Positions 21,101-56,547 of a DNA stretch of 64,000 nt are shown piece after piece. Position numbers and translations under genes: made by a program. The notes beneath the pieces are model-generated. The model saw nothing but the letters and a program-made list of their open reading frames with translations. It had not been told where the DNA came from and made no database searches. How positions within the stretch are numbered: the stretch's first letter is position 1; each line of letters begins with the position of its first letter. This DNA is from Nanobdellota archaeon (GTDB lineage Archaea; Nanobdellota; Nanobdellia; Woesearchaeales; GW2011-AR4). The stretch covers positions 389-64,388 of the forward strand of contig JBBSVT010000074.1 in assembly GCA_038046685.1 (NCBI GenBank), in the 5' to 3' direction.

Positions 21101-21104
21101 TGGT

Positions 21105-34365: not shown

Positions 34366-36552
34366 TCAGCGAAAGCAATCAGCTATTCCATCTTTTAAAT
34401 TGTCTATGGTTATGGACTCATTTCTAAAATACTCTTGAAGTTTAGCAAAAATTCTTGTGTATAACTGCTGTAGATGTTTGTCACCAACTCTATCAGGATG
34501 AAATATTTTTGCTAATAGCCTGTAACTGAGAATGCTAATCCCATATTCTCTTTGCGTTTGTAATCTTTCTCGCTTTTCCTTATTCGCACTTGCCATCTCC
34601 AAAAATCTTTGCCTTATTGAAGGATGAGCATTCAAAGTTTCTAAAATAGGTTGCAAAATATCATGAATTAGAAGAAAAAAATTCTCGCTACCTCCAACAC
34701 AACCACTACTTGAAATTTCCCTTAGAAAATGCGCAAATTCATTAATACTTACGCTGTGGTTTCTGACATAGCGGCTTTTTATTTCTTCCCATTGTTGTTG
34801 TTTTTGCCTTAGTTCTGCAGAAGGTTGTACTGGTTCTGCCCCATCTGTTGCCTCTCTGTCTTCAGCCCCAGCTCCTGGCTGTGCTCTTCCTCTTGTACCC
34901 CCTTCACCAGCTCTTGACTTAGCTCTTTCGCTTGCTATTCTATGTTTCTCTTCGGCAATTTTTGTAAGTTCTAGAAGAATACGTAAACGAGGTTTAAAAG
35001 ATTCAAAATGTTCTATAACCGAATCGTTTTGCAAGAAATAATCCAACTCAGTCCAGTTGAAATCGATTAACAATTGAGCATACACCGATAATTCATTTCC
35101 TTGATCTACATTCAAAATATTTTGCCCTTCTCCCTGAACTAGATGTTTATTTACTTCATCAAATGGCAATGGTTCGCTCCTTAACATTGTAAACAAACTA
35201 TCAAAAAAAGAGACTATGCTCCGAGATTCTGCACTTTCTTCACCACCAACTCCTGCACCTCTTGTTTTTCTGATCAATTGTTCAGCTAATCTTCCCAATA
35301 GCGCAATTTGCTTTTCAATCTTTTCGGTTAGAGCTTTAATAATCAAATTTTCTATTTTATGATAGTAACTTAATTTTCTTGTATCTTCTATCTCTTTCTT
35401 ATATTTGCCCTTCACAAGCTCCCCTATATATTTTATCTCCAATAATGCTTCTATTTCTTTGGCTAAAATTTCTTCATGCTTTAATGCGTCAAAGCAAATA
35501 AAAATCAGATGAATTATACCGATTTTTCTTAGATCGTTTATTGTTGCACGGTCGATTCTTCTTATCTCATCTACAACTATTGATGTATACATTAAATTAT
35601 TATATTCCTCTTCATGCTGGCTTGTATTCTTATGTTGTTTGCAAAGCTTAAATATTATTAAGAAATCTCGCTCTATTTCTCTTAATTCCACAAGATACTT
35701 ATTTAAAGTTCTTTCTAATTTAACAAATCTTTCAAAAAGGTCGTGTTCACTTCTAATATCGTCAATAGCCGGATCTGTATAGAGATTAGGTGGCGATTTG
35801 CTGAACTCCTCAAAAATAGCCTGTTCTACATCTCCGGCCTCGAGTATTGCCTTTTTTTCCTTGTTGGTGGCATTTATTTCATCTATTGCTCTTTTTTTTT
35901 CCGCTTTTAACTTATCTATGTGGCCAATAATCTCCTCAACTTTCATTGGCTCCTTTTTTTTCCTTTTTTTCAATCTTCTACGCACAAAAAATCCGCCGGC
36001 AATTAATATTAAAATGCCAATGGCAATCAAAATTTTAACCCATGGCAAGCCTTCTGTTGTCCTGGAAATCCATGAAGGAGCAGGTGCTGAAGAGGGCGTA
36101 GTTGGTTGTGTTATTTCAGGAGAAGGGGCTGTAGGAAATCCTTCAGGAGAAATTCCCCCAGGAGTCGAAGATGGTGTTGCTTTAGGGGAGGGAGTTGTTA
36201 CAGAAGGTTTTGGTTCAGCTGGTGTTGGCGGAGTGACTTGCTTAGCTTCGATATCAATGGGGGATTTGACTGATATAGGGGCAAACAAGTCTTGGGCGTA
36301 AGAAGATACATCTGGAGGGCTTTTAACTTCAGGAAACTGAATGCCTTTAAATGTTTCTGTGATTGAGCTCAAGAACCCAGTGGCGGGAGCTTTCACATCT
36401 GGAAGCGTAAGACTATCAAAAAGGATTTTGAATATGATTATGGTCAGCACAGTCAATACCAAAGCCAATGTGAAGCGCCAAAATTTGTTTTTGATTCCTA
36501 TCATCCTAATAACCACCACCAAAACCAAAATATCAGGAAGTAAAATACCCAA
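34366..36552 (-). CDS. membrane protein with Pro/Thr-rich linker and C-terminal J-domain-like (HPD) region
   Basis: TM helices; linker PTPAEPKPSVTTPSPKATPSSTPGG...; C-terminal YGISILSYRLLAKIFHPDRVGDKHLQQLYTRIFAKLQEYF resembles a DnaJ J-domain. Confidence 0.5.
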   Translation of the reverse strand: MGILLPDILVLVVVIRMIGIKNKFWRFTLALVLTVLTIIIFKILFDSLTLPDVKAPATGFLSSITETFKGIQFPEVKSPPDVSSYAQDLFAPISVKSPIDIEAKQVTPPTPAEPKPSVTTPSPKATPSSTPGGISPEGFPTAPSPEITQPTTPSSAPAPSWISRTTEGLPWVKILIAIGILILIAGGFFVRRRLKKRKKKEPMKVEEIIGHIDKLKAEKKRAIDEINATNKEKKAILEAGDVEQAIFEEFSKSPPNLYTDPAIDDIRSEHDLFERFVKLERTLNKYLVELREIERDFLIIFKLCKQHKNTSQHEEEYNNLMYTSIVVDEIRRIDRATINDLRKIGIIHLIFICFDALKHEEILAKEIEALLEIKYIGELVKGKYKKEIEDTRKLSYYHKIENLIIKALTEKIEKQIALLGRLAEQLIRKTRGAGVGGEESAESRSIVSFFDSLFTMLRSEPLPFDEVNKHLVQGEGQNILNVDQGNELSVYAQLLIDFNWTELDYFLQNDSVIEHFESFKPRLRILLELTKIAEEKHRIASERAKSRAGEGGTRGRAQPGAGAEDREATDGAEPVQPSAELRQKQQQWEEIKSRYVRNHSVSINEFAHFLREISSSGCVGGSENFFLLIHDILQPILETLNAHPSIRQRFLEMASANKEKRERLQTQREYGISILSYRLLAKIFHPDRVGDKHLQQLYTRIFAKLQEYFRNESITIDNLKDGIADCFR

Positions 36553-36890
36553 TGGATGAAAGGTAAGAATATAGTAACAGAAAAACCAGCTGCAACAAGC
36601 AGGAATGCTGTCATTGAACCGAGAGAAATAGCCATAATGCGTTCTGGCCTGTGCACTTCCTTGAATGAGTATCTGACTCCAATCATATAAATTATTATGA
36701 AAATCAATGCAAAGAAGAAAAAGTCTATGGTCTTTGAATAGGCCACATACTCCTCATTTTCAAAGAAATCGTTTATCTGGATTAAACCACCTAGGAAGGC
36801 ATCTGTCAAAGGTTTGGCATGCGCAATACCAGAAAGCAAAGCGAATACTAAAATTGTTGCAAATATTATTTTTATATTTGTTGTTTTCAT
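36501..36890 (-). CDS. secreted/membrane protein, tandem paralog 1
   Basis: Signal peptide; conserved block INDFFENEEYVAYSKTIDFFFFALIFIIIYMIGVRYSFKE shared with the neighbour. Confidence 0.5.
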   Translation of the reverse strand: MKTTNIKIIFATILVFALLSGIAHAKPLTDAFLGGLIQINDFFENEEYVAYSKTIDFFFFALIFIIIYMIGVRYSFKEVHRPERIMAISLGSMTAFLLVAAGFSVTIFLPFIHWVFYFLIFWFWWWLLG

Positions 36891-36892
36891 GT

Positions 36893-37399
36893 TTATCCAA
36901 AATCTTCGGGAGCTAAACTTTCAAACAGCCCTTCAATCAAAAAAATCGCTATAAATGTAAAAAACAACGCTAAGACAAAGCGCAGGAATTTGCTTTCCAC
37001 ACCTTTAAACATAAGCCAAAACAAAAGAAAGATTAAGAGGTAGAGCAGAAGCGGGACATAAGGTATAAGAGATAGTAATGAGTAATCTTTCGACACCATC
37101 AAGAAAGCGCTCATTATTCCGAGCACAACTGCAATAGCCTTCTCAGGCTTATTAGCTTCTTTGAAAGCATACCTGACGCCTATAAGATAAATTGATATAA
37201 ACAGCAATGCAAAGAAGAAAAAGTCAATAGTTTTTGCATATGCCCCATATTGCTCTTTTTCAAAGAAATCATTGATTTGCATCAAGCCATTAGCGAAAGT
37301 ATCCGAAAAAGCATCCGAATGGGCCGCTGTTGAAAGCAATGATATTAGTGTAACTATCAAAATTCCCGCTTTAGTTAATTTTTTGTTTATCAGTTTCAT
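36893..37399 (-). CDS. secreted/membrane protein, tandem paralog 2
   Basis: INDFFEKEQYGAYAKTIDFFFFALLFISIYLIGVRYAFKE. Confidence 0.5.
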   Translation of the reverse strand: MKLINKKLTKAGILIVTLISLLSTAAHSDAFSDTFANGLMQINDFFEKEQYGAYAKTIDFFFFALLFISIYLIGVRYAFKEANKPEKAIAVVLGIMSAFLMVSKDYSLLSLIPYVPLLLYLLIFLLFWLMFKGVESKFLRFVLALFFTFIAIFLIEGLFESLAPEDFG

Positions 37400-37633
37400 C
37401 TTGAGATATTTAAATATAAAAGGAACAATTTAAGTTTTCTGATGAAGAGTGTTTTCTATCTGGTACATACAGCGAAAGATATTGGTTATGGAAAAAAAAC
37501 GAAAACCTTTTATAATCAAGATTGTTAGCCCTTATTGTGATGGGTGCTACGCTGATTGTGAGAAAGCATATGCTAGGCTCGCTGTAGGTGTATATTACGT
37601 TGCTGTGCAACGTCCCTTGATTATTACTTTTTT

Positions 37634-38071
37634 TCATAGCAAACTTTCAACCTCCTTTTTAGTTACGATTTTATTTGGAGCTAACTTTCCAGTAAAGGTT
37701 TGATATGCAATTCTATGGGCATTTGAATTCTTGCCAATTCTGGAAAATATAATTAAATTTTTGTCAAAATCAAAATATTCTTTCCTTATGAATCCTAGAA
37801 GATGTTTCTTAATGTCTGCTTCCCTTCTTTCATATTCTACATCTATAACTATCAATTGTATCCTATGAAGGTGATTTCTTATACAGTAAAAAATCAAAAT
37901 GGCAAATAATCTGTAATGGATATCTACGTGCTTGTTTCTGTATTCTGTTAAAATTTCCACTTTTATTTTTTTCTTCAGCAAAACTGAGTATTGCTCATCG
38001 TTCCTAAAAGCTACAACTGAATCTATATCAGTTTGTTCTATTTTTCCACTTTGGTCAACTTCAATTTTCAA
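37634..38071 (-). CDS. hypothetical protein
   Basis: 145-aa ORF. Confidence 0.35.
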   Translation of the reverse strand: MKIEVDQSGKIEQTDIDSVVAFRNDEQYSVLLKKKIKVEILTEYRNKHVDIHYRLFAILIFYCIRNHLHRIQLIVIDVEYERREADIKKHLLGFIRKEYFDFDKNLIIFSRIGKNSNAHRIAYQTFTGKLAPNKIVTKKEVESLL

Positions 38072-38072
38072 C

Positions 38073-38594
38073 TTAAAACCTCGAAATGCAGTTTTTTATT
38101 ATTTCAACCAGCTTTTCCTCTCCGAACAAAACAGCGCCATTTTTCAGAATCTGAATAGCTTGAGAATCCTTTTTTCTCAACAAATCAATAATTTCATCTT
38201 CTGATTTAAGGATGACATCAATATTTGGGGTTATTGCATCAGGAAATGCCCCATTGTCAGTTATCAGAAGCAAACTTTTTTTATCAAGAATGGCAGCTTT
38301 GGCTTGTTTTAAATTCCCAATATTTGCTGTTTCAGTTTTTTCTTCAGAGTAAAGCAGGACAATTTTAGCCAAATGCTCAGCTATTCTGTTTTCAAAATTG
38401 ATTGAATAAAACAGGCCGGTTCCAAGTTTTTGTCCGGCAACGATGTTCTGTTTTTCCAGCTTTTTAAGAATGTTGAAAACTCCCGCCGGGCTAAAGCTAA
38501 GCCTATGCGCAATATTCCTAATAGTAAGCTTTTCAGTGAAATTCCTGACTAAAAAATTCAATACGCTAAATTCGTTGTCCGATAAAGAGAGCAT
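38073..38594 (-). CDS. winged-helix transcriptional regulator
   Basis: FSVLNFLVRNFTEKLTIRNIAHRLSFSPAGVFNILKKLEKQNIV is a wHTH. Confidence 0.5.
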   Translation of the reverse strand: MLSLSDNEFSVLNFLVRNFTEKLTIRNIAHRLSFSPAGVFNILKKLEKQNIVAGQKLGTGLFYSINFENRIAEHLAKIVLLYSEEKTETANIGNLKQAKAAILDKKSLLLITDNGAFPDAITPNIDVILKSEDEIIDLLRKKDSQAIQILKNGAVLFGEEKLVEIIKNCISRF

Positions 38595-39034: not shown

Positions 39035-39212
39035 ATTTATTGACTCAAATGATATAATATTTACGTTCACTAACAGCAGTCAAAAGCACAGATGCAGAAA
39101 AATTTTAATTGAAGAAAATATTACTATGACAAGCATTTTGATAAGCTTGAAATAAAAAGGGTTGAGCCGTAGAGATGCTCTACTTTTTGTTTAAGGTCTT
39201 TTTTGTTTCAGA

Positions 39213-41000
39213 TTAACTTCTTGGCTTGAAGGGATTTCTCGGCAAGTCGTGTCCCCAGTATTTTGTACCACTAAATTTACCTCCCTCAGTTACAAGCCCT
39301 ATATTAGGTCCGATATCATAGCCGCCTATGGCATCACCTATCGCCTCCAACACTTCCATAACTCCTGCTTTATTTGGGTCGCCGGTGCCGCCCCAATACT
39401 TGGTTTCTTCAATAACACGGTGCAAAATGTATAACGCCGCTCCTCTGGTAGTTATTGTTGGCTTTTCAGACTGATGGCTTAATATATTCTCCTGCAAGTC
39501 GTAATAGTACTTTCTACCAATATGCTTATCTTTGTCTTCTGCTCTCGGGTCAAAAGCAGGATTAAGATGGCTTGGCCTTATTGTCATTTCAACATATTCC
39601 GGATCTGAAGGTGGCCTTAAAGATGTCTCTGTTGTTTTCCCGGAAAGCTTATTTAATATCATCCTAACCTTAGCGTGTCTTCCGTGGTCAATATCTCTTT
39701 TTGTCTGTGGATGCACATTGTACTTCTCAGCCAAAGATTTTGGTTTTCTTGGGTCAATAGATTTTAATTCAGTCATTATTCTTTCCATTACTGTAATTGC
39801 ATTCTTGTGATACCTTCCGTCTCTCAAATCATCCCTGTACGCATCATAACTGACATAAACCCAATATGCTATATCTAACAAATCACAATCTTCTATGAAA
39901 TGTGAAGGTACTGTTCGTACTTCACTTCGAGGGCGTCCTTCATAAATGTCAATGAGCACTTTTCCTTTTTCCAATGGTTTTCCCTCAAACAGAGTTTCAC
40001 CATCACCAACTTCAAGAGGATATCCATTCTTGTCAAGCCCAGGCGCAACTTCTTCAGGTCTTTTAAAGTTTGCAGGAAGTGTGTTAATGTTATCATTTGT
40101 TGGATTTTCAGCATCATCCAAGAGACGCCCATCACTGTCCAAAGGCTTGATGACTTTGTAGGTGTGTGCATAATGCACCTTTTGATATCCCAATCGTTTT
40201 TTCATCACATTCTGTCTTAGCTTTCTTAGTTCTGCATGCCTGCCTAATACGCCGCCTTCACCCTTGCTTCCTCCAAGTGCCTTTCTATGCTCTTCTTCAA
40301 AATTCACCATCTTTTGTTGCAAATACTTTTTCAAGTCCATTATTTTGCTGTGGATAATTTTTATGTTATCCCCAACACGTTGATTATTAGGCAACGCTGC
40401 CTTAACGTCTGCACATATCTTTTCAATATCCCTATCTAATTGATTCCAGTATTCACTATTCCGGGCCCCAAAGTAAGCAACTTGGTATCTTAAATTTTTA
40501 TGGACTATCCACTTTTCAGGGGGAAGATTAAATCTCACATTAATGATTCCACCCCCACTTGCTGTTAAGTCAATAGGAAGTTCAACGGGAGGTTGTTCTG
40601 TAGGGCTAGAGAAAGTTCCAGAATCGGACAATTTATACTCCTGTAATAGCGATTTTTCATTAATAAAAGGCCCTATGCTTGAGCCTATTTCATGCTTGTC
40701 AGACACAAATTCAGAATATAATTCTCTAAGTCTATTTCTATAAAATTGCGCACTCGGTTCTTGTCCTTTACCCTCAAGGCCGTCCCAACTCAGTTCCGCT
40801 TCCACCATCTCCTTATTCAATTTTTGTATTGTGTCAAATTCTATCTCCTTCTTCAATTTTTGGTAAATGCCAATATTTTTAATATCTTCTTCAGGACCAA
40901 AATGTACCGGAAAACCTATAAACCTTAAACCTCTCCAAAGGTTGGTTCTCCAATTAAGAAATCTTCTGGGTAAAGGTTTTTGCTCAGCCATAGCGCTCAC
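39213..41000 (-). CDS. large uncharacterised protein (operon gene 5)
   Basis: 595-aa ORF, no recognisable motif; 17-nt overlap with the upstream gene. Confidence 0.5.
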   Translation of the reverse strand: MSAMAEQKPLPRRFLNWRTNLWRGLRFIGFPVHFGPEEDIKNIGIYQKLKKEIEFDTIQKLNKEMVEAELSWDGLEGKGQEPSAQFYRNRLRELYSEFVSDKHEIGSSIGPFINEKSLLQEYKLSDSGTFSSPTEQPPVELPIDLTASGGGIINVRFNLPPEKWIVHKNLRYQVAYFGARNSEYWNQLDRDIEKICADVKAALPNNQRVGDNIKIIHSKIMDLKKYLQQKMVNFEEEHRKALGGSKGEGGVLGRHAELRKLRQNVMKKRLGYQKVHYAHTYKVIKPLDSDGRLLDDAENPTNDNINTLPANFKRPEEVAPGLDKNGYPLEVGDGETLFEGKPLEKGKVLIDIYEGRPRSEVRTVPSHFIEDCDLLDIAYWVYVSYDAYRDDLRDGRYHKNAITVMERIMTELKSIDPRKPKSLAEKYNVHPQTKRDIDHGRHAKVRMILNKLSGKTTETSLRPPSDPEYVEMTIRPSHLNPAFDPRAEDKDKHIGRKYYYDLQENILSHQSEKPTITTRGAALYILHRVIEETKYWGGTGDPNKAGVMEVLEAIGDAIGGYDIGPNIGLVTEGGKFSGTKYWGHDLPRNPFKPRS

Positions 41001-42732
41001 TCATAAATTTGCTGGTTCTTTCGGTTACATACCCAACATCTTCTAAAAGTATTCTTTGTTTAGACCAATTCACTAAAGTTAGATAGGCATTAATCATTCT
41101 TTGAACTCCTTTCCTTATTAGCGTTAAATCATAGTTGCTCAAAGCATTATCCTTTTGCTTGATTTGTTCTATAAAGTCGCCGAATTGATTGTGGAACTCA
41201 CCAAGCCGAGCAAAATCAAAGTCTAGCATAAGCAGATATGAAAACTTTGCTGGGTCTAAAATGTTTACAGCTTCCAATACTTTCTCTTTGTGCTCTGAAA
41301 ATTTCACAATGCTTCCTCCTTGAGTAGCCAATTGTTCAGCTTCAGCTTCTATATCAAACATCTCTTCCAATTTTTCAAAATGCTCAGCAATGTCCATATA
41401 CATCACGTCAACCCTGTCATAAGTATATATAAATCTTTTTTTTCTGTTTTTCCAGAGCCTATCGACGTCTCTTTTGAGCGCGTCAATGCCCTTTTGGACT
41501 GCTGATACTAGATTGATTTCACCGCTTTCAGCCATAATTGCCCGGTTAATTTGCAGGATAAGCCTTGCAATTGCATCTCTTAATAGTCCACTTCTCTTTT
41601 CAAATACGGCAGCGAGATATTTTCCTGCATCACCAATCACAGCATTCTTTCTTCTCATTAACTCCTCTAAGCGGCCTCTCCATCCGTTTAATATGGTTAT
41701 CCACTTAAGTGGTTGCTGTCCTATTCTTTCTTTATTTTTCAGTAAGTAGCTTGCAAAGGGATTATCAGCATATTCTGTTCTGAAAGTGGCAGCATACTCC
41801 TCTATATGTTTACAAAATTCCTCAGTAGCCTCAGCCCTCATCCATTTAGACTTGCCAAATTTGTCAGTTTGTATATCCCTCTGCAGCATTGAAATCAATC
41901 GTGAGATAAATCCTATTTGCTCAGCAACCTTGTGTGTGAATCGAGCTACGTAATAAAGCATTTGAACCTCTCTGCTGCCAAACACGGCTTTTCTTAAGAT
42001 CTGGTCTTTGTTGAATGTATCAAGTCCCTTGAGCAGTTTCCCATCTGGTGTTTTTACATCTTCTTCAAAATAAGAACGCGTTCTGTCAGTGAAAAAAAGA
42101 ACATCAAAATGCACATGCTGGCTCCAATCATTGACATCTCTTAAGGCATAATTTAAAGACTCAATTTCACCCATATACCTTTTTATTAAAGTTAGCCTAT
42201 TGCGAATGTTCGCTTTTAATTTCTCATCTTCCAACAATTCAACAATATGCAACAGCGAAGCAATATCTTTCTCCAATTTTCCTAAGTCATTAATATCACC
42301 AGAAATTTTTTGAAGCACGCCAATTCCCCTCTCTCTTGCCAACCCGTGTTTTCTTATTAACTGCATCAGCTCTTTGTCTATCAATCGCGCAAATTCTGGG
42401 TTATTTGTCTTGAATTCTTCCAGTCTTCGCTCCAGAATCTCATCTAAAGCCCCTAAACTTAATGTTCCGCTTCTAACTTGTGCCATCAACTTTTGTAAGT
42501 GGAAAATGAACATGTAATCAAATGCCTTTTTCTCCAATTCTTCTTTATTGCCAATAATAGAATTTGCATTATCCACAACAAGCCTTAGATTTTCAATTGT
42601 GTTCAGCGCTTCTTCCAAAAATCTTGAAACTTCATTGTCAAATAATCTTTGAGGCGTATCAATTCCAGGTTTGTCTAAGTCAGTTCTTGTCATTAGGTTA
42701 TCTGAAGTTGGATTATTTGGCAACTGTTTCAC
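40984..42732 (-). CDS. large uncharacterised alpha-helical protein (operon gene 4)
   Basis: 582-aa ORF; 20-nt overlap upstream. Confidence 0.5.
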   Translation of the reverse strand: MKQLPNNPTSDNLMTRTDLDKPGIDTPQRLFDNEVSRFLEEALNTIENLRLVVDNANSIIGNKEELEKKAFDYMFIFHLQKLMAQVRSGTLSLGALDEILERRLEEFKTNNPEFARLIDKELMQLIRKHGLARERGIGVLQKISGDINDLGKLEKDIASLLHIVELLEDEKLKANIRNRLTLIKRYMGEIESLNYALRDVNDWSQHVHFDVLFFTDRTRSYFEEDVKTPDGKLLKGLDTFNKDQILRKAVFGSREVQMLYYVARFTHKVAEQIGFISRLISMLQRDIQTDKFGKSKWMRAEATEEFCKHIEEYAATFRTEYADNPFASYLLKNKERIGQQPLKWITILNGWRGRLEELMRRKNAVIGDAGKYLAAVFEKRSGLLRDAIARLILQINRAIMAESGEINLVSAVQKGIDALKRDVDRLWKNRKKRFIYTYDRVDVMYMDIAEHFEKLEEMFDIEAEAEQLATQGGSIVKFSEHKEKVLEAVNILDPAKFSYLLMLDFDFARLGEFHNQFGDFIEQIKQKDNALSNYDLTLIRKGVQRMINAYLTLVNWSKQRILLEDVGYVTERTSKFMSERYG

Positions 42733-44374
42733 CTGCTGTTTGCTCTAAAAATTCCGATTGCATCCTAAAATAATCATTTAAATATTTTCTTATTTGCTCA
42801 GCTTCCTTTGAATGCTGTTTGGCAACCGTGCTAATGAAGTTCCACAATCCTTCCAACGATACTGTTGGATAAGGATTTGCAGGGTTAAATCTTGGACTGT
42901 CTACACTCTCATCATAATAATGTTTTCTGCCCCAATATACAAATTTATCAGGCTGTTTTAACGCTTCTCTATCAAATGCAGTTTGATTTTCCTTCAATAA
43001 GCTGCTAAAGCGTGCATTTTCAAAATCGAGCCTACCTTTTTTTTCCATTATAGCCGCATAGTCCTCTGTTGTTCTACTATACGGGTGATAGACTCCTTTT
43101 TGCATATCCTGAACATTGAAATCCCAGTCACTTTCAGAAAAAGTAAGTATTTGGGAAAATTTACCTCTGGTATCTAAATGGAAAAGTGTAAGATCTTCTT
43201 TTTTAAATCTCCTTACCCTAAATTTGCCATTTACCTCAGGGTTTTTTCTTTCAGTCTGAATGGCATTAATATCACTTACAGCATAACCAAATAAATTCAC
43301 TTCTACAAGACATTCTGCTGTGCCTTCTTCATACTCAGCAGGACTTCCATTTTTAATAGCCCTTGCAGTTTCCCATTTTATATCCCTTGTTACCTTATTG
43401 TCATCTGTTTCAACTTCGTATATCTTAGGAATAGCTCCTTTTTTTGCAAAGCCATAGCCTCTAACGTATTGACCATACATATTATACATATCTTGGAAAT
43501 AAAGTCTGGTAGCTTTGATATAATTTAATACCTTAATTCTTGATATGGTTGCCTTATATCGGTCATAAGCATCATCGAGTTGTGTTACGTTAACATCAAC
43601 AATTGAACCCATTTTGTTTTCCACATATTTGTCTGATTTTATAATTTCGGGTGTTTCACCAGCTAAATTCAACTCCAATATTTCCTTTAGCTCTTTCATG
43701 AGCTTGTAAATAACTATGTCCTTTCTTGCAATTCCCCAAGTATTTGCATGTTTTTTTGTTGTTTCATTCTTTCCAAGTACCCAGTCAACTATTCTTCCAT
43801 TGCTCACTACAGGCTCTACTTTGCCACCCTCCACATCCCTTATCATGCTCTTGCGTAGTTCTTCCTCATCTAATTCAACAGATTGCATTGGTCCTTCTTT
43901 CTTCAAAACTTTTTCTATAGTGTCTGCAAATGCCAAACGCTTTGTCTTGTATATTTCATGCCTCAATAAGTAATTCATCAAAACATAGAGTTCAATCCTA
44001 AGCTCTTTCAGCAGAGGGTGCAGTTCATCAGGTGGGCCTCTTAGCCTGTAACCAAGCCAATTGGAAAGCAATGACCCAATCACCCTCTGTTTCTTAAGCC
44101 GCTTTAGTATCTTAAATCCAACTCTTATTCTCCCTTCCCTTATCCATCTAGCTCTTTTTTCACCATTTGCCCACGCCATAAATATAAAGAAGAGTATCAT
44201 TAAAACAGCTAATGCACCCAAAGAAATTTTTAGATTTCCATATGTAAGTTTTGGATAGAAATAGCTATTACCAAAAATCAAGTACCAAACATAATCTGCT
44301 ATACCTGCGAATATAAAGGCCACTACCCATCTCACAAGCCACGACATATTGCGCATAAAGTCTATGACTGTCAT
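42713..44374 (-). CDS. membrane-anchored uncharacterised protein (operon gene 3)
   Basis: Two N-terminal TM helices then a ~480-aa soluble domain; ATGA overlap upstream. Confidence 0.5.
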   Translation of the reverse strand: MTVIDFMRNMSWLVRWVVAFIFAGIADYVWYLIFGNSYFYPKLTYGNLKISLGALAVLMILFFIFMAWANGEKRARWIREGRIRVGFKILKRLKKQRVIGSLLSNWLGYRLRGPPDELHPLLKELRIELYVLMNYLLRHEIYKTKRLAFADTIEKVLKKEGPMQSVELDEEELRKSMIRDVEGGKVEPVVSNGRIVDWVLGKNETTKKHANTWGIARKDIVIYKLMKELKEILELNLAGETPEIIKSDKYVENKMGSIVDVNVTQLDDAYDRYKATISRIKVLNYIKATRLYFQDMYNMYGQYVRGYGFAKKGAIPKIYEVETDDNKVTRDIKWETARAIKNGSPAEYEEGTAECLVEVNLFGYAVSDINAIQTERKNPEVNGKFRVRRFKKEDLTLFHLDTRGKFSQILTFSESDWDFNVQDMQKGVYHPYSRTTEDYAAIMEKKGRLDFENARFSSLLKENQTAFDREALKQPDKFVYWGRKHYYDESVDSPRFNPANPYPTVSLEGLWNFISTVAKQHSKEAEQIRKYLNDYFRMQSEFLEQTAGETVAK

Positions 44375-45357
44375 TTAGGTGTACCTCCTGTTGTGCCTGT
44401 AGTTCCGCCAGGTGATCCTTTCCACCACCTACTGAATGCTTTCCAGCCGATTGTTCCAAAAATAAATGAAACTATAAGCGAACCATATTGGCGCCAATCA
44501 TCTCCCCTCCATGGATAAGGGAAAGCATTTTGCCAAAACCAAGTTATGACTCCTCTTCCTGGAAATACAATGTAGGATATCCACAAAACAAGTCCTACGG
44601 CAACAAAGTAGTTGTACCATTTGCCTCCAAGCTGCTTTCCTAAAACTATAATTGAAAGGAGTTCTCCCAACTTGATTATTGTATCAGTTGTGGTGCCACT
44701 TTTGGCAATATCAGCAGCAATGATTAGCGCCATTGCATACGAAAGCTTGTTGTACCCTTCTCCCATCTTGAGGAAACCAACAAAGAACCACGATAGTAAT
44801 ACTGCAGAACCTATAAAAACGTACAACCTGTTGTCTTCTGGACTTAAGATGCCTTTTTCGCCTAAAAGGTAATTATAAAATTGTTGCAAAGTTTGTGTAT
44901 TCCATACATAACTTTCCAGCCTTAATGAAATTATTGCAGCAATAAAAGTTATCAACAATAATGCCCCAACCTTTCCCTGTTTTGATTCAAGAGGTACTCC
45001 AAGCAATCCCAAACTGAAATAAACAACTCCCGAAATTAATATTGTGTTGACTATGACGACTGGGTTAAACATACCAGCAAAAGCTCCGACTTCCCAAATA
45101 AAGCCGCTAGAGCCAATAAATACCCACGCTATAATAAACGATAATCCAAAAGTTGCAATCCACAATATTGCTTTTTCTTTGTCTGACTTTTCCGGCATTA
45201 GTATGTATTGCAGCAAAAATAAAATAACCCATATTATTGCCGTATTTATTGCTAAAACAACCCATGGATTTCTTGGCGACACTTCCTGAGCAAAAACTGA
45301 GGGAATTCCAATTACCAAGATTAATGCGCTAATCCAAAGCATTTTGCCTATTTTCAT
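44371..45357 (-). CDS. polytopic membrane protein with Gly/Thr-rich C-terminal tail (operon gene 2)
   Basis: About eight hydrophobic helices; ...WKGSPGGTTGTTGGTPK; ATGA overlap with the ATPase gene. Confidence 0.5.
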   Translation of the reverse strand: MKIGKMLWISALILVIGIPSVFAQEVSPRNPWVVLAINTAIIWVILFLLQYILMPEKSDKEKAILWIATFGLSFIIAWVFIGSSGFIWEVGAFAGMFNPVVIVNTILISGVVYFSLGLLGVPLESKQGKVGALLLITFIAAIISLRLESYVWNTQTLQQFYNYLLGEKGILSPEDNRLYVFIGSAVLLSWFFVGFLKMGEGYNKLSYAMALIIAADIAKSGTTTDTIIKLGELLSIIVLGKQLGGKWYNYFVAVGLVLWISYIVFPGRGVITWFWQNAFPYPWRGDDWRQYGSLIVSFIFGTIGWKAFSRWWKGSPGGTTGTTGGTPK

Positions 45358-46499
45358 AATTCTTTTGCTACCTCTTCCAAAATTTTATCGTCAGGAGCAT
45401 CATCAAACTCATAACCATGAGAAGTTAACTTAACCCAAAGGCGGAGCACATTGTCAGCAAAGTAGAACATGTTGTTTTTCTTGTAAATGATGTCAACTTC
45501 CATCAATCTTTCAATAATGCTTTTTGCCACAGGAGCACTTCTGTAAATTTTCCTTGCAATATCGCTCAGGCGAAGCTCTTCGTTTGCGATAACTTTCAAA
45601 ATCGATTTAAGCAGTGTTTGTCCTCTTGCCCTGCTGTAATAGTAATTCAAAGACTCTTTGCAGTAATTGTGAAGTGAACTGTTTTTTTGAAGAAGCTCAA
45701 TCAAGAATGCCTTTTTAGCTTCCTTAATTTCATTGCATTTCTTAGAAATTAATGAAGCAACAAATGGATGGCCATTGCTTAATGCAAAGATTTCTTCGCC
45801 TAAATTTATATCTCTTTTGCCGACAATGCTTTCCACAAGCTCAATTGTTTCATTCTTGTCAAGATTTTTTATTTCATAGCACTCAAATTTTCTTAATATG
45901 GACAAAGACTCCTTGATAGCGGAGCTTGTTGCTATGTAGCTTATGCTTTCGGAATCAAAATCAATAAGTGAGATAATGTCCCTAATTTGAGAGAAATTGT
46001 TTAAGTCAAGCAGATTTTCAAAATTGTCAAGCGCAATCAGGAATTTTTTGCTGTTTTCCTTTCCTAGGATTCCAGCAAAATCAAAGGCGCTCTGAGCAAG
46101 AAGCTTTTGGTCGGGCTTTATTTTAAGCAATTCATTGTGAACTGATTTTATCACAGAAAAAGCGTTTTTGCTTTTTAGCTCCTGCTCACATTCCAGCAAA
46201 TTTTCAATCAATAAAAACTTTTTATATTCATATAGCGGCTTTCTTAAGAAATGAAATATAATATTGCCGATAAACTCGATTGAGAAATTTTCAGGATTAA
46301 GGCTTATTTTTTCCAAATCAATGTAAACTGGAACAAGATCCTTGACATGCTTAAGATGCACCTTGACAATTGATGTTTTGCCTGATTTTCTGGAGCCGAG
46401 CAATGCAATGTTCTTCTTGATTCCGTTCCGGAAGGAATTTGTATTTTCATCTAATAGCTTTAAGTAATAGCTTCTTCCGATAACCGAATCATCTGTCAA
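45354..46499 (-). CDS. Arch_ATPase-family (AAA+-like) ATPase with C-terminal wHTH/DUF234-like region (operon gene 1)
   Basis: Walker A IALLGSRKSGKTSIV, Walker B LIALDNFE, and architecture typical of the PF01637 family. Confidence 0.7.
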   Translation of the reverse strand: MTDDSVIGRSYYLKLLDENTNSFRNGIKKNIALLGSRKSGKTSIVKVHLKHVKDLVPVYIDLEKISLNPENFSIEFIGNIIFHFLRKPLYEYKKFLLIENLLECEQELKSKNAFSVIKSVHNELLKIKPDQKLLAQSAFDFAGILGKENSKKFLIALDNFENLLDLNNFSQIRDIISLIDFDSESISYIATSSAIKESLSILRKFECYEIKNLDKNETIELVESIVGKRDINLGEEIFALSNGHPFVASLISKKCNEIKEAKKAFLIELLQKNSSLHNYCKESLNYYYSRARGQTLLKSILKVIANEELRLSDIARKIYRSAPVAKSIIERLMEVDIIYKKNNMFYFADNVLRLWVKLTSHGYEFDDAPDDKILEEVAKEL

Positions 46500-46733
46500 T
46501 TTATTCTCGATTTATTCTAAGTCCAAAATTCTCTCAACAAATTTCTATTCCATTTGGTATATATACTATTAATATAAAAATGTTGCTATTTTAAAAAGTT
46601 ATACTAAATGGTATATTTTTTTAAGATTTATAATCCAATCTGTAAAGAACTGATATATAAAACTTGTCTTTTTAATTATTATATTAATTGGTATATATAT
46701 TTTTTGGTATAAAAATTACAACTTTTTTATTTT

Positions 46734-47045
46734 TTGAACAAAAACTATCTAAAATTTTTGAGTCAAAACATTTATATACATAGATATCCACGTATCTACA
46801 TAATGAGTGATATTTACTTTCAAGGTAAGCAAATTATCATCAAAGTCCATGCAATAAAAAGAGCAAGGGAAAGAGAAATTGCATTTCCGGACCAAGTTTA
46901 TGATGTTTTGCAAACAGGCAAAGTAAAAAGATTTGGGAAACATGGAATTAAGTTTGTCAAAAGGAGCAAAGACGGCTCAATAATCTGTGTCGGAGAGGAT
47001 TTAGGTTATTGTATAATTATTAAAACGATAGAGCGAGGTAACTAA
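46734..47045 (+). CDS. BrnT/RelE-fold (DUF4258-like) toxin; likely start at the internal ATG (~46802)
   Basis: IKVHAIKRAREREI...DGSIICVGEDLGYCIIIKTIER. Confidence 0.45.
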   Translation: MNKNYLKFLSQNIYIHRYPRIYIMSDIYFQGKQIIIKVHAIKRAREREIAFPDQVYDVLQTGKVKRFGKHGIKFVKRSKDGSIICVGEDLGYCIIIKTIERGN

Positions 47046-47046
47046 C

Positions 47047-47355
47047 ATGAAATGTCCAACATGCCAAAAAGGAAAGATGGAAAAGAAGAAAGAGATTATG
47101 GAACAGGATGGGATAGAGTTTGAGGCTTACAAATGTTCAGAATGCGGAGAAGAGATAATGAATATGGAGCAATTGAAAGTTTTAGCAGGCAAATACAGAA
47201 AATTAAGGCACGCAAAAGATATAACTTTCGCGAAATGGGGGAACAGCATTGCAGTCAGAATTCCACGCGACATTGCAGACGAATACAATATTTTTGCTGG
47301 AAAGCATGGAACATTAACTAAAGTTAAAGAAGGAATTAAAATAATTCCAACGTAA
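47047..47355 (+). CDS. zinc-ribbon plus AbrB/SpoVT-like antitoxin (BrnA-like)
   Basis: CPTCQKG...CSECGEE zinc ribbon; ITFAKWGNSIAVRIPRDIADEYN swapped hairpin; immediately follows the toxin. Confidence 0.5.
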   Translation: MKCPTCQKGKMEKKKEIMEQDGIEFEAYKCSECGEEIMNMEQLKVLAGKYRKLRHAKDITFAKWGNSIAVRIPRDIADEYNIFAGKHGTLTKVKEGIKIIPT

Positions 47356-47533: not shown

Positions 47534-48358
47534 ATGGCCGAAACACTAGAACAAAAAGTTGGAGCGCCTCCAACCGCAAAAAACCCAGTAGAAAACCCAG
47601 AAGAAAAAAAGCCAAAGTTTTTTGAAAATATGCGAAAAGAGTTTTCAGAATTACCTAAATGGATTGGAAATTCTGCGCTCAGCGCAACTATGCTTGGAAC
47701 ATCATATGCATTAGGCGGCTTAGACGCTTTGGCGCTTGTAGGCTCTTATCCAATAAGCGGAATGGTAAAAAAAAGCATTAAGAAAAAGCCATTTGACTCA
47801 TCTGAATTAAGAGACCAAACCGGAAAAGGTCTTGTAGGCGGATTACTCACATTTGGCGCGATAAAATCAATACAAAATTTATCTGATTCTTATGGATTGG
47901 ATGGTTTGGCGAATGGCTTTAATGCTGCTGTGCCAATAGCTTTTGGCTTAACATTAGCTGCTATGCCAGCGATAAATTTTGGATACGAATTTTTTAAGTA
48001 TATAATTGACAACAAAAAGATTAAAGGAGTAATCAAGCATTATAAGGACAATTTTTTAGGCGATACAAAAAAATATATGCTTCGCTTATTGCCGGTTGCC
48101 GGAATGGTTGCAGCGTCAGTAGCAATACCCGCTTATTCTTATTTATTATTTCCCGCTGTTGCAGCCTACAACGTTCTCAATAGAGCCACATATAATCTAT
48201 CTGCTTATGTTTCATCTGCATACAAAACAGTGAAGGACATAACAGTAACAACATTTAAATTATGTGACGGGTTTATGAATTCATTTTATAGAATGGGGCA
48301 GTCAATTAGTAAATTCATGGAAGGCAGACCAAAAGCACCGGAGAAACAACCAGCCTAG
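47534..48358 (+). CDS. hypothetical protein with hydrophobic patches
   Basis: 274-aa ORF. Confidence 0.4.
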   Translation: MAETLEQKVGAPPTAKNPVENPEEKKPKFFENMRKEFSELPKWIGNSALSATMLGTSYALGGLDALALVGSYPISGMVKKSIKKKPFDSSELRDQTGKGLVGGLLTFGAIKSIQNLSDSYGLDGLANGFNAAVPIAFGLTLAAMPAINFGYEFFKYIIDNKKIKGVIKHYKDNFLGDTKKYMLRLLPVAGMVAASVAIPAYSYLLFPAVAAYNVLNRATYNLSAYVSSAYKTVKDITVTTFKLCDGFMNSFYRMGQSISKFMEGRPKAPEKQPA

Positions 48359-50567: not shown

Positions 50568-51569
50568 ATGCAAAAAAAAGGGCAAGTGACTTTGTTTTTA
50601 ATCTTAGGATTATCTTTAATTGCAGTATTTGGTGCAGTCTATTATTTTGGAGGCTATAAAACTGCCACAACTGCAAAAACTCAAGCTCAAGCTGCAGGAA
50701 GCTCAGACGCCAAAGACATTGTTAAGTCATACGCAGAAAATTGCTTGAAAAAGGTAACAGAAGAGGTATTGTTTAATAAGATTGGAGTGCAGGGTGGGTA
50801 TATAAATCCAAGTGAGATTAGTCCTGCTCCAACATTTTTTGATGGGTATAATGTGCCTGTTTATTTGGAAGTCAGATGCAATATGCAATGTAGGGACAAA
50901 ACTATACCACAATGTGGTCCTTGTCCTCCGCCTTCTACTGAACAATGTTGTGAAGATGTTCGAGTATGTGATTATTGCTGGTGTGATTGCCCTTACACCA
51001 GAATTATTGATAGAAGTTTAACCCTAGGTTCAATTAACAACAAATTAAAGAGGTACGTTGAAGACGAGTTTGAGAACTGTTTTGATAGAAATGTCTTTAA
51101 AAATGTCGGTATAGAGGTTATACAGTCTGGAACAAGCATAACCGCTGATGTAAGTTTAGATGCAGAAGATGTTTCTGTAAATTTATATTATCCTTTAACA
51201 ATTAGAAAAGATGGAACTGAGTCAAAGTTGGATTCATTTGTAGTTACTCTGCCAATTAGGCTAGAAAAATTATATAAAGGTGCAAAAGATTTTGTAGATC
51301 AAGTAATACGTAAACTTCCAGATTCCTCGCCCAAACCTTGTTATCCCATATGCACAGTCCAATACGACATAAGACAAGATTGTCAGAGTGGTGTGATATA
51401 CAACAAAAACCGCCTAACAAACGTTTATGCAAAAACTGCTGACTCAAACACAAAAGTTATCCAATTCTTTGATTTCAGCACTTATTTAGAAAAATACTTC
51501 AAATCTTTCATTTTCCAATTTGCTGTTAGGCTTAATGGTGTGAATATCGAAGGTGCTTGTACTGGATGA
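50568..51569 (+). CDS. membrane-anchored/secreted Cys-rich protein
   Basis: N-terminal TM; CRDKTIPQCGPCPPPSTEQCCEDVRVCDYCWCDCPY. Confidence 0.5.
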   Translation: MQKKGQVTLFLILGLSLIAVFGAVYYFGGYKTATTAKTQAQAAGSSDAKDIVKSYAENCLKKVTEEVLFNKIGVQGGYINPSEISPAPTFFDGYNVPVYLEVRCNMQCRDKTIPQCGPCPPPSTEQCCEDVRVCDYCWCDCPYTRIIDRSLTLGSINNKLKRYVEDEFENCFDRNVFKNVGIEVIQSGTSITADVSLDAEDVSVNLYYPLTIRKDGTESKLDSFVVTLPIRLEKLYKGAKDFVDQVIRKLPDSSPKPCYPICTVQYDIRQDCQSGVIYNKNRLTNVYAKTADSNTKVIQFFDFSTYLEKYFKSFIFQFAVRLNGVNIEGACTG

Positions 51570-55074: not shown

Positions 55075-55116
55075 ATCATAAAACACATTATTAAATTACA
55101 ACTAAAAAACATTAAA

Positions 55117-56547
55117 ATGTTACAAGAACAAATGAAAAAAGGTGTTAAGTTTTTTCCTGTATTTTTGTTAGTGATGGGAATGGGTTTGGTTGTCTTGGAT
55201 GTTTATGCAACAGATCCGGAACCTACACCAATTCCACAAGTTGTTAGTTGCAGTCAATTTCAGTCAGCTAATTCTTTTTATGCTAGTTGGACGTGCACTC
55301 TATCCTTTTCTACCAATTGTGATGGTGGTGTGATTAATAATGATATTCATTACTGGCGGCGGGATAATGGTGAGGGTGGTTGCTTGATTCTTACAAGACC
55401 AGGCGGTCCAGCACCCCCTCCTGTTTCTTCACAGCGACTAATGCGAATTAGCTGGACAGCAATACAAAATGCGATCTCTTATAATCTGCGAGTGGAAGAT
55501 ATGACCGATAATACATATAATACAGTACGTACAAATCGTCAGGAAGATTTCCCCGCTTCTGATACTTGCGATCCAAGTCCCCATTATGTTTGTGAAAACA
55601 ATGTAAATACATTGTTCTTGGCTGGTATTCGGGTTGTCCCAGGACATACTTATAGGTATTGGTTTGATACAAATCCTGCAATTGCTGGATGTGCTCCGAC
55701 TGGAATAATTAGTGTGCCATCAAGTCCTGCTTCAGGTGCTCCAAGTGGTGGCGCTCCAACCCAACCGACAGGCGCTGCGCCTTGCCCAATAACTATATCT
55801 CCACCACAGGTTTCTGGCGGTGCTTTTGATGGAGGCCGTACCTTTGTTACTATATCTTGGAACAATGTTAATAACGCCAACAGCTACAAGTTATACGCAA
55901 CACCATCTGGTTCTGAGGATCAACCAGCAGACCAACCACAAGGTTTCTCTGCATGCACCGACATACCGGGATTTGTTATTTGCAAGTCCGTAAATACCAA
56001 TTCAATACCTTATTTCCCAATTTTCCCTGGAAGACCTTACAAATTCATGGTACAAGCTTCAGTTCCCAATTGCGGTGCAGTAAATTCCCCAGAAACAGAC
56101 TATCGTTATGGTCAAGGAGTTACTTTTACTGCCAACCCTACTAGTCCGGAACAACGTTGTGGTAGAGTTGGCGTTTTTGACCCTCAACTAATAGGTACAA
56201 TTAGTGGAAGTGGCGATTCCTCCGCAGAATTGAGATGGCAATATTTTCCTCCTGCTGGCGTAAGCCCTGTTCCTACTCCAACATCATATAATGTAAGATT
56301 AGATGATAGATCAGGCGAAAGGTCTGGTCTTAATAATTGCCCAGATAATCCTCCTTACTACTTATGCGTAAATGGTGTGAGAGTCAATGCATTGCGAGAT
56401 GTGCTCATTAGAGCTGGAAGAAATTATCTTCTCTGGGTTGAGCCTGTTATTCCTGGATGCACAGACCAACCTGGTGGCTACATAAAAGGAGAAAGAACAA
56501 TATATCTGCCTGTACCTCCACCGTCGGAAGGGGGGGGTAATCGATAA
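55117..56547 (+). CDS. secreted protein made of three copies of the same ~100-aa module
   Basis: Signal peptide shares FLLVMGMGLVV; repeats ISYNLRVED...PHYVCENN...YRYWFDTNPAIAGC, NSYKLYATP...FVICKSV...YKFMVQASVPNC, TSYNVRLDD...PYYLCVNG...YLLWVEPVIPGC. Confidence 0.6.
   Translation: MLQEQMKKGVKFFPVFLLVMGMGLVVLDVYATDPEPTPIPQVVSCSQFQSANSFYASWTCTLSFSTNCDGGVINNDIHYWRRDNGEGGCLILTRPGGPAPPPVSSQRLMRISWTAIQNAISYNLRVEDMTDNTYNTVRTNRQEDFPASDTCDPSPHYVCENNVNTLFLAGIRVVPGHTYRYWFDTNPAIAGCAPTGIISVPSSPASGAPSGGAPTQPTGAAPCPITISPPQVSGGAFDGGRTFVTISWNNVNNANSYKLYATPSGSEDQPADQPQGFSACTDIPGFVICKSVNTNSIPYFPIFPGRPYKFMVQASVPNCGAVNSPETDYRYGQGVTFTANPTSPEQRCGRVGVFDPQLIGTISGSGDSSAELRWQYFPPAGVSPVPTPTSYNVRLDDRSGERSGLNNCPDNPPYYLCVNGVRVNALRDVLIRAGRNYLLWVEPVIPGCTDQPGGYIKGERTIYLPVPPPSEGGGNR

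What the first reader, a model, noticed from the sequence alone, without database searches (positions are those of the whole stretch)
39213..46499. Five-gene translationally coupled operon: Arch_ATPase + polytopic membrane protein + three large proteins with no recognisable domains
The five genes overlap head-to-tail (ATGA, ATGA, 20 nt, 17 nt) on the minus strand, so they are almost certainly co-translated. The first encodes a Walker A/B ATPase of the poorly understood Arch_ATPase family. It is followed by an ~8-TM protein with a Gly/Thr tail, a 2-TM-anchored 553-aa protein, and two 580-600-aa proteins in which I recognise no known motif. The operon is flanked by regulators and TA modules and by an AT-rich divergent spacer carrying TGGTATAT repeats. 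A membrane-associated ATPase machine of unknown function, whether defence, secretion or surface-structure related, is the best candidate here for an undescribed system.
Basis: partly seen in the sequence, partly recalled or inferred. Interest (0 to 1): 0.75.

Follow-up and report, generated by a model that had tools for sequence, protein, structure and literature searches.

The report
Unknown five-gene membrane operon in Woesearchaeota
A real five-gene operon, conserved in order across tiny groundwater DPANN archaea, encodes a regulator-like ATPase and four membrane-associated proteins that resemble no known protein family or fold, so it looks like an undescribed cellular system whose function is still open.

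Summary
Five minus-strand genes (39213-46499) overlap head to tail. The same order g1-g2-g3-g4-g5 recurs in every related locus with enough sequence: 29 complete cassettes, all from Woesearchaeota/Nanoarchaeota MAGs. g2 and g3 are fused in about half.

g1 is a divergent Arch_ATPase/ORC-like P-loop protein with a Walker B of D-N and a C-terminal winged helix. g2-g5 match nothing in Pfam, NCBIfam, PADLOC, PHROGs or PDB sequences. A confident AlphaFold model of g5 (pLDDT 86) matches no PDB or viral fold.

New findings:
- g3 and g5 share a novel C-terminal domain of about 180 residues.
- The roughly 200 bp upstream of g1 is conserved at the DNA level. It carries a TATACCAA array that is about 200-fold enriched there.
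- Two loci that lack g1 also lack the motif.
- g2-g5 diverge far faster (21-49% identity) than flanking housekeeping genes (81-87%), but under purifying selection (dN/dS 0.07-0.40).
- The cassette is absent from the viral and plasmid collections searched.

Best reading: g1 autoregulates an operon that encodes a membrane-anchored complex facing the cytoplasm. The function of that complex is unresolved. Defence and secretion remain live rivals.

The parts
45354..46499 (-). g1: 381-aa divergent Arch_ATPase/ORC-like P-loop NTPase. Walker A is at residues 35-42 and Walker B is D158-N159 with E161. The C-terminal winged helix carries an invariant YR-AP--K----RL motif.
   Evidence: AAA_14 hits 25 of 26 orthologues and ATPase_2 hits 14 of 26. 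The PDB profile hit is 2fna_A at E 0.0019. g1 is 60-78% identical among the main-clade cassettes.
44371..45357 (-). g2: 328-aa polytopic membrane protein with a signal-peptide-like N-terminus, about 9 hydrophobic segments and a Gly/Thr tail. The inferred topology is N-out, C-in. It is fused to g3 in 16 loci.
   Evidence: There is no Pfam or PDB match for the family.
42713..44374 (-). g3: 553-aa protein with an N-terminal TM hairpin followed by a large domain. That domain is inferred to be cytoplasmic because 13 Lys/Arg follow TM2. Its C-terminal part (about residues 408-532) is homologous to the C-terminal domain of g5.
   Evidence: The AF2 model is poor (pLDDT 62).
40984..42732 (-). g4: all-alpha soluble protein of about 569-582 aa. 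The likely start is the TTG at 42723 (579 aa, preceded by AGGTGA). It is the fastest-evolving member and is unrelated to g3 or g5.
39213..41000 (-). g5: 592-595-aa soluble protein, with a likely ATG start at 40991. Order of elements: N-terminal helices, a beta meander, a long helical hairpin, then a conserved alpha/beta C-terminal domain with motifs GLDxNGxPLE, DAYRDDLRDGRYH, NPAFD, GRKYYYD and PTITTRG.
46545..46712 (-). Conserved promoter/operator region. TATACCAA half-sites lie at 46704-46711 and 46688-46695 (16 bp apart) and at 46608-46615. A TATA-like TTTTTATATTA lies at 46570-46580. The palindrome GTATATATACCAAATGGAATAG lies at 46545-46566, just upstream of g1.
   Evidence: Of 88 TATACCAA occurrences in 656 kb, 62 fall within 300 bp upstream of g1. 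The nucleotide alignment of 12 loci is conserved.
39150..39158 (-). Oligo-T tract about 55 nt after the g5 stop codon. It is a probable archaeal transcription terminator and so the probable end of the operon.
   Evidence: sequence reading; the function is inferred.
47534..48358 (+). Linked sixth gene: a 274-aa Gly-rich membrane protein. In most relatives it is transcribed divergently from g1 across the shared spacer. In the window a TA-like pair (46734-47355) has been inserted between them.
   Evidence: The gene is linked to the cassette in 20 loci. 7 of 22 family members hit Mpv17_PMP22 weakly, but the window copy does not.

Best explanation
This is a genuine operon specific to Woesearchaeota-type DPANN archaea.

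Shown: the five genes are tightly coupled and their order is invariant. g2 and g3 are often one polypeptide. g3 and g5 carry the same novel domain. The upstream DNA carries a conserved TATACCAA array that is specific to the cassette.

Inferred:
1. g2 plus g3 form an 11-TM membrane platform whose large domain faces the cytoplasm.
2. g5, the soluble paralogue of g3, and the all-helical g4 dock onto that platform, giving a membrane-anchored cytoplasmic complex. Its conserved Asp/His/Asp/Tyr pocket binds a ligand or metal, or catalyses a reaction.
3. g1 is not the motor. It is a nucleotide-dependent switch with a degenerate Walker B. Its winged helix binds the three upstream half-sites and the palindrome next to the TATA-like element. 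In this way g1 autoregulates the operon and the divergent membrane-protein gene.
4. g1 activity is possibly fed back by sequestration on the complex made alongside it. This step rests on analogy only.

The cellular role is unresolved. My best guess is a chromosomally inherited membrane or envelope function of these host-dependent cells, not a mobile defence island.
For: Gene order and coupling.

g2-g3 fusions: 16 loci.

Shared g3/g5 domain: hhalign probability 97.8-99.6%, E 1e-12 to 4e-24.

Cytoplasmic orientation: inferred from the positive-inside rule and consistent with the fusions.

g1 classification and winged helix.

Operator: 8.3 copies per kb upstream of g1 against 0.04 per kb elsewhere, with conserved spacing and a palindrome beside a TATA-like element. 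The g1 recognition-helix residues are invariant even in cassettes whose g1 is only 28-40% identical. The two loci that have g2-g5 but no g1 also lack the motif. Instead they carry a 54-55-aa ORF and a different repeat.

Vertical, chromosomal character: conserved flanks TrxR, DJ-1, PAC2 and P5CR; no relatives on IMG/VR contigs, no g1 match in plasmid records, and no PHROG match.

Functional constraint: dN/dS 0.07-0.40 for all genes.
Against: No experiment or structural homology links g2-g5 to any activity.

Topology rests on hydropathy and charge rules only.

DNA binding by g1 is inferred. The winged helix could instead be the structural WHD of an ORC/STAND module, and another factor could bind the operator.

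Only two loci without g1 were found.

The ATGA coupling of g1 to g2 would also fit g1 being a stoichiometric subunit or motor.

The very fast divergence of g2-g5, the uneven dS along the operon and the TA/R-M-rich neighbourhood fit a conflict system as well.

The cassette is missing upstream of the MarR module in 5 of 10 independently sampled loci, so prevalence and positional stability are not established.
Confidence: 0.5

Rival explanations
1. Anti-virus or anti-MGE conflict system. g1 is a STAND/ORC-like sensor ATPase, and g2-g5 are membrane-anchored sensor and effector subunits that act on infection.
For: g1 orthologues give weak hits to AAA_16, NACHT, NB-ARC and nSTAND3. g2-g5 are 21-49% identical where TrxR is 84-87%. 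dS is mosaic along the operon, and a duplicated g5 3' fragment sits in L005, both suggesting allele exchange. TA and R-M genes are nearby.
Against: No PADLOC model matches any of the five proteins. The flanking housekeeping synteny is conserved across cassettes whose g5 is down to about 25% identical. No copies were found on viral contigs (g1, g5) or in plasmid records (g1). There is no recognisable nuclease, protease, NADase or pore domain. Gene-wide selection is purifying. TA modules are everywhere in this genome, so their proximity says little.
Confidence: 0.2
2. Secretion or cell-contact apparatus. g1 energises or chaperones a g2/g3 translocon, and the leaderless g4 and g5 are exported or delivered to the host cell. 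That would explain their fast evolution.
For: The g2-g3 platform is polytopic, and g1 is translationally coupled to g2. These archaea are host-dependent. g4 and g5 diverge rapidly, and g5 carries variable insertions that bring it to 800-1100 aa in some relatives.
Against: g1 belongs to the ORC/Arch_ATPase class, not to the VirB4, VirB11, FtsK or SecA-type translocation ATPases. Two cassettes work without g1. g3, which is predicted cytoplasmic, shares its conserved domain with g5. g2 and g3 have only short external loops.
Confidence: 0.15
3. DNA-to-membrane tether or segregation device. g1 binds the TATACCAA array as a centromere-like site and couples it to the membrane complex.
For: A repeat array lies immediately upstream of the operon, as in plasmid and archaeal partition loci (from general knowledge of par and SegAB systems). 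g1 combines a winged helix with an NTPase. Membrane partners are present.
Against: g1 lacks the deviant Walker A of ParA-type proteins: it has GSRKSGKT. The palindrome sits beside a TATA-like element, the classic position of an operator. A segregation machine would not be expected to diverge as fast as g2-g5 do. Some cassettes lack both g1 and the motif.
Confidence: 0.05
4. Remnant of an integrated virus or other mobile element, with g1 as a packaging or replication ATPase.
For: All the proteins are orphans. In one relative (L010) an integrase lies about 4 kb downstream.
Against: No PHROG hits. No relatives in 2.9 million IMG/VR contigs. The chromosomal flanks are the same in many genomes. There are no capsid, portal or integrase genes within or adjoining the cassette, and selection is purifying.
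Confidence: 0.03

Closest known systems
Arch_ATPase (Pfam PF01637 ATPase_2; structure 2FNA, S. solfataricus SSO1545) and the related AAA_14/DUF815/ORC-like P-loop ATPases
   Same: The Walker A P-loop, the beta-strand order around Walker B, the helical lid and the C-terminal winged helix. The family profile aligns to 2FNA over residues 19-232. AAA_14 hits 25 of 26 orthologues and ATPase_2 hits 14 of 26.
   Different: The window protein is below threshold for every model. Walker B is D-N instead of D-E. It heads a fixed operon with four orphan membrane-associated proteins and has its own conserved operator. I know of no such context for PF01637 proteins.
MalT-type STAND transcription activators controlled by their cognate membrane machinery (analogy from general knowledge, not tested here)
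   Same: An ATP-binding NTPase carries a DNA-binding winged or HTH module. It regulates the operon of a membrane complex and could be controlled by sequestration on that complex.
   Different: g1 has no sensor repeats. No homology to MalT was shown. The partner is not an ABC transporter. The feedback step is pure inference.
Module 98 of Castelle et al. 2021 (PMC8204110): 51 protein families specific to Pacearchaeota and Woesearchaeota, mostly of unknown function
   Same: The same lineages and the same 'conserved but unannotated' status.
   Different: That paper lists families by presence and absence. The text searched gives no operon, operator, domain relationship or structure. Whether g1-g5 belong to module 98 was not checked.
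Membrane-anchored multi-gene defence systems such as Zorya or Kiwa (from general knowledge)
   Same: A membrane component combined with large helical cytoplasmic proteins, and rapid evolution.
   Different: No PADLOC match. No MotAB-like, nuclease or helicase domains. The chromosomal context is syntenic.

Membership tests
Arch_ATPase (Pfam PF01637 ATPase_2) | Match to the PF01637 model at or above its gathering score | tested here: not met
   The window g1 gives no PF01637 hit at E <= 1. 14 of 26 orthologues hit it weakly, with a best E of 8.9e-7.
Arch_ATPase (Pfam PF01637 ATPase_2) | Walker A P-loop GxxxxGK[ST] | tested here: met
   GSRKSGKT at residues 35-42. G35, G40 and K41 are invariant across 26 orthologues.
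Arch_ATPase (Pfam PF01637 ATPase_2) | Walker B hhhhDE | tested here: not met
   The motif is LIALD158-N159-F-E161. N159 is present in at least 90% of orthologues, whereas 2FNA has LDEAQE at the aligned position.
Arch_ATPase (Pfam PF01637 ATPase_2) | Sequence relationship to a solved family member, and a C-terminal winged helix | tested here: inconclusive
   The profile hits 2fna_A at E 0.0019 over the NTPase domain only. Winged-helix models HTH_Cmi2_C (22 of 26) and HTH_45 (18 of 26) hit weakly.
STAND NTPases (NACHT/NB-ARC/AAA_16) | An NBD-HD-WHD module joined to sensor repeats and an effector domain in one protein | tested here: not met
   g1 is 381 aa with no extra domains. Only scattered weak hits were found: AAA_16 in 17 of 26 orthologues, NACHT in 3 and NB-ARC in 1.
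Known anti-phage defence systems (PADLOC-DB 2.0) | At least one component matching a system model | tested here: not met
   Zero families at E <= 1 for all five proteins.
Secretion/translocation machines (VirB4, VirB11, FtsK, SecA-type ATPases) | An ATPase of the corresponding Pfam family | tested here: not met
   None of these families appears among the listed g1 hits (top 25 of 40 families).
ParA/SegA-type partition systems | Deviant Walker A (KGGxxK[ST]) ATPase together with centromere repeats | tested here: not met
   The Walker A is the classical GSRKSGKT. Upstream repeats are present, but they lie next to a TATA-like element.
Virus-encoded protein families (PHROGs v4) and IMG/VR contigs | Homologue in a viral protein family or on a viral contig | tested here: not met
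   No PHROG at E <= 0.01. No tblastn-confirmed locus for g5 or g1 in viral contigs.
Mpv17/PMP22 (PF04117), for the linked 274-aa gene | Match to PF04117 | tested here: inconclusive
   7 of 22 family members hit, with a best E of 2.6e-7. The window copy does not hit.

The most novel reading that the evidence does not exclude
g2-g5 build a previously unseen kind of membrane-embedded machine peculiar to Woesearchaeota-type DPANN cells. It would be made of novel folds, one of them a new paralogous Asp/His/Asp/Tyr domain pair, and would mediate a process these host-dependent cells need, for example exchange of lipids or metabolites at the host contact site. A dedicated ORC-like ATPase repressor would control it by reading a private operator code.
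Probability: 0.3. Interest if true: 0.85.

Novelty: categorically new. Interest (0 to 1): 0.68.

Why it matters
Woesearchaeota and their relatives are among the most abundant uncultured archaea in groundwater and sediments. How such reduced cells manage their membrane and their dependence on hosts is an open question.

This locus offers a concrete handle:
- a fixed set of four orphan protein families, one with a confident new fold
- a membrane platform
- an unusually well-defined regulator/operator pair that can be tested in vitro without cultivating the organism

If g1 binding to TATACCAA is confirmed, it would also give the large and enigmatic Arch_ATPase class a first clear job as a transcription switch.

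Tried and rejected
Searches that found nothing useful:
- Pfam, NCBIfam, PADLOC and PHROGs on all five proteins gave nothing above threshold.
- Pfam on long g5 variants and on g2-g3 fusions found no informative fused domains, only weak DUF5752 and coiled-coil noise.
- PDB profile searches for the g5, g4, g2 and 274-aa families gave nothing significant.
- The AlphaFold-database library was unavailable.
- The word-indexed search for g4 returned only itself, so g4 could not be modelled with an alignment.
- The g3 model was too poor to search (pLDDT 62).

Ideas tested and rejected:
- g4 as a third paralogue of g3 and g5. hhalign probability was below 1%.
- The MarR-like neighbour as the operator-binding factor, or as part of the operon. 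It always pairs with a DUF8208-type giant membrane protein, and it occurs without the cassette in 5 of 10 independent loci. TATACCAA is not found upstream of it.
- The 54-55-aa ORF in the g1-less clade as a ribbon-helix-helix protein. It looks like one by eye, but neither Pfam nor PDB confirmed it.

Literature searches found no description of the cassette.
Full report
**Observation**

The g1/g2 and g2/g3 junctions are ATGA overlaps. The 20-nt and 17-nt overlaps result from taking the longest ORFs. Public gene calls give g4 579 or 569 aa and g5 592 aa. Shine-Dalgarno-like motifs favour a TTG start for g4 (11-nt overlap) and an ATG start for g5 (8-nt overlap). An oligo-T tract follows g5. The contig comes from Hainich groundwater and NCBI labels it a Nanoarchaeota archaeon.

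**Conservation**

g3 has only 8 relatives in the word-indexed 5.8-billion-protein set. g5 has 47 relatives there and 264 cluster representatives at E <= 0.001 in an exhaustive profile search of 1.84 billion proteins. Contexts of relatives show the same order: ATPase, membrane protein, g3, g4, g5.

A scan of one genome per GTDB species found 38 loci. All come from Woesearchaeota/Nanoarchaeota MAGs. Several carry a placeholder label, 'uncultured Methanosarcinales'. HMMs built locally from the orthologues found the five families in the same order in every locus with enough upstream sequence: 29 complete cassettes. g2 and g3 are fused into one protein in 16 loci. Five more cassettes turned up in metagenome contigs that had been selected through a different gene.

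**What the proteins are**

No protein reaches a curated cut-off in Pfam, NCBIfam, PADLOC or PHROGs.

- **g1** has a classical Walker A motif. Its Walker B is D158-N159 (N in at least 90% of orthologues), with E161 nearly invariant. Its C-terminal winged helix has core residues Y319, R320, A322, P323, K326, R331 and L332 that are invariant across all 26 orthologues. Per-member Pfam scans hit AAA_14 (25 of 26), DUF815 (21), AAA_16 (17), ATPase_2 (14) and winged-helix families. The family profile finds the PF01637 structure 2FNA at E = 0.0019. g1 is therefore a divergent relative of Arch_ATPase, not a demonstrable member.
- **g2** has a signal-peptide-like N-terminus and about nine hydrophobic segments. 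The positive-inside rule gives N-out, C-in, which matches its fusion to the N-in TM hairpin of g3. The hairpin of g3 is followed by 13 Lys/Arg.
- **g4** is all-helical and has no relatives of known function.

Profile-profile comparison shows that g3 and g5 share a C-terminal domain of about 180 residues (probability 97.8-99.6%, E 1e-12 to 4e-24). Four features are conserved in both: an Asp and a His (D391 and H398 in g5, D423 and H430 in g3), an FD motif, GRKxYYD, and a PTxxxxG motif. g4 is unrelated to either protein.

**Regulatory DNA**

Three exact TGGTATAT copies cluster in the spacer. Across all loci the core TATACCAA occurs 62 times in the 7.4 kb lying within 300 bp upstream of g1. It occurs only 26 times in the remaining 649 kb, which is 8.3 against 0.04 copies per kb. 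Spacing is conserved: a pair 16 bp apart, a third copy about 80 bp downstream, and an inverted copy near the start codon.

A nucleotide alignment of 12 loci shows about 200 bp of conserved non-coding DNA. It includes a TATA-like TTTTTATATTA immediately followed by the palindrome GTATATATTCCAAATGGTATAG. This DNA is better conserved than the g2-g5 proteins.

Two loci of a divergent clade (L033, L034) have g2-g5 but no g1 and no TATACCA. In place of g1 they carry a 54-55-aa ORF that overlaps g2, and a different repeat, GTTACTA. The motif therefore tracks g1. Together with the invariant recognition helix, this is the basis for proposing that g1 binds the array and autoregulates the operon. That proposal is an inference, not a demonstration.

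**Evolution and context**

Among genomes whose TrxR is 84-87% and DJ-1 81-84% identical to the window, g1 is 60-78% identical. g2 is 32-45%, g3 23-44%, g4 21-41% and g5 25-49%. For close pairs, dN/dS is 0.07-0.40 for all genes and is highest for g4. All five genes are therefore under purifying selection.

dS is uneven along the operon: saturated or at least 1.5 in g1, and 0.25-0.55 in g4-g5. This suggests recombination within the cassette.

The flanks recur across loci: TrxR, DJ-1, PAC2, P5CR and aldehyde dehydrogenase. A roughly 275-aa membrane protein is linked in 20 loci, usually transcribed divergently from g1. In the window a TA-like pair has been inserted between that gene and g1.

A MarR_2 regulator plus a DUF8208-type giant membrane protein often follow the cassette, but they form a separable module. 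No relatives of g5 or g1 are found on IMG/VR contigs, and g1 has none in plasmid records.

**Interpretation**

I favour an autoregulated operon for a membrane-anchored, cytoplasm-facing complex. g2/g3 would be the platform, g5 the soluble paralogue of g3, and g4 a helical partner. g1 would be a nucleotide-dependent DNA-binding switch (confidence about 0.5). The cellular role is open.

Rivals and their confidences: a conflict or defence system (0.2), a secretion or contact apparatus (0.15), a DNA-membrane tether (0.05) and an MGE remnant (0.03).

The papers I searched contain no description of the cassette. The nearest mention is the set of unannotated families specific to Pace- and Woesearchaeota in PMC8204110. 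Because four of the five proteins, including one confidently modelled fold, have no detectable relation to anything characterised, I rate the system as lying outside known kinds. The caveat is that function is unknown.

Noticed in passing
window 34366-38594 (-); L072 10692-17234; L074, L075, L079: A second conserved module. A MarR_2 winged-helix protein (173 aa, 66-80% identical across loci) is always followed by a protein with a DUF8208-like N-terminal membrane domain. In relatives this partner is one giant protein of up to about 2180 aa. In the window it is split into a 168-aa ORF, a paralogous 129-aa ORF and a 728-aa ORF, and an extra 145-aa gene sits after MarR.
   Followed up: partly
window 34366-36552 (-): The 728-aa protein has two N-terminal TM segments, a Pro/Thr/Ser-rich stretch and a third TM segment followed by RRRLKKRKKK. 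Its long helical C-terminal part contains an 'IFHPDR' motif reminiscent of a J domain. Pfam gave no DnaJ hit.
   Followed up: partly
window 46734-47355 (+): A toxin-antitoxin-like pair sits between g1 and its usual divergent partner gene: a weak DUF4258 match, then a Zn-ribbon plus MazE/AbrB-like protein. Relatives have a single spacer of about 400-500 bp there instead.
   Followed up: yes
L033 2693-2857 and L034 2915-3082: In a cassette clade without g1, a conserved 54-55-aa ORF overlaps the start of g2. The upstream DNA carries GTTACTA-type repeats instead of TATACCAA. The ORF looks like a small DNA-binding protein, but Pfam and PDB gave no support.
   Followed up: partly
L005 11117-11452; L021 9536-11244: L005 carries a 111-aa duplicate of the g5 C-terminus just downstream of its full g5. 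In L021, g5 is split into two ORFs. These may be traces of allele replacement, frameshifts or assembly errors.
   Followed up: no
L014/L015/L053 and L016/L017 cassettes: Synonymous divergence differs about three-fold along the operon, high in g1 and low in g4-g5. g1 stays near 70% identity whether g5 is 25% or 89% identical. This suggests recombination breakpoints inside the cassette.
   Followed up: partly
window 18587-21932 (+): A low-GC stretch (0.29 against about 0.35) carries DpnI-like, N6/N4 methyltransferase, ParB_N and weak DUF4062 genes. It is probably a horizontally acquired restriction-modification island.
   Followed up: no
window 50568-51569 and 52453-56547 (+): Three further sizeable ORFs of 333, 873 and 476 aa have no Pfam match at all. 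The last two are adjacent on the same strand.
   Followed up: no
L013, L015, L018, L019 and other 'binchicken' MAGs: Many contigs that carry this Woesearchaeota-type cassette are titled 'uncultured Methanosarcinales archaeon'. Synteny and protein identity with the Woesearchaeota MAGs indicate that this is a placeholder or wrong label.
   Followed up: no
window 47534-48358 (+) and family A8: The linked 274-aa membrane protein family gives weak hits to Mpv17/PMP22 in 7 of 22 members. Mpv17/PMP22 is a family known mainly from eukaryotic organelle membranes.
   Followed up: partly
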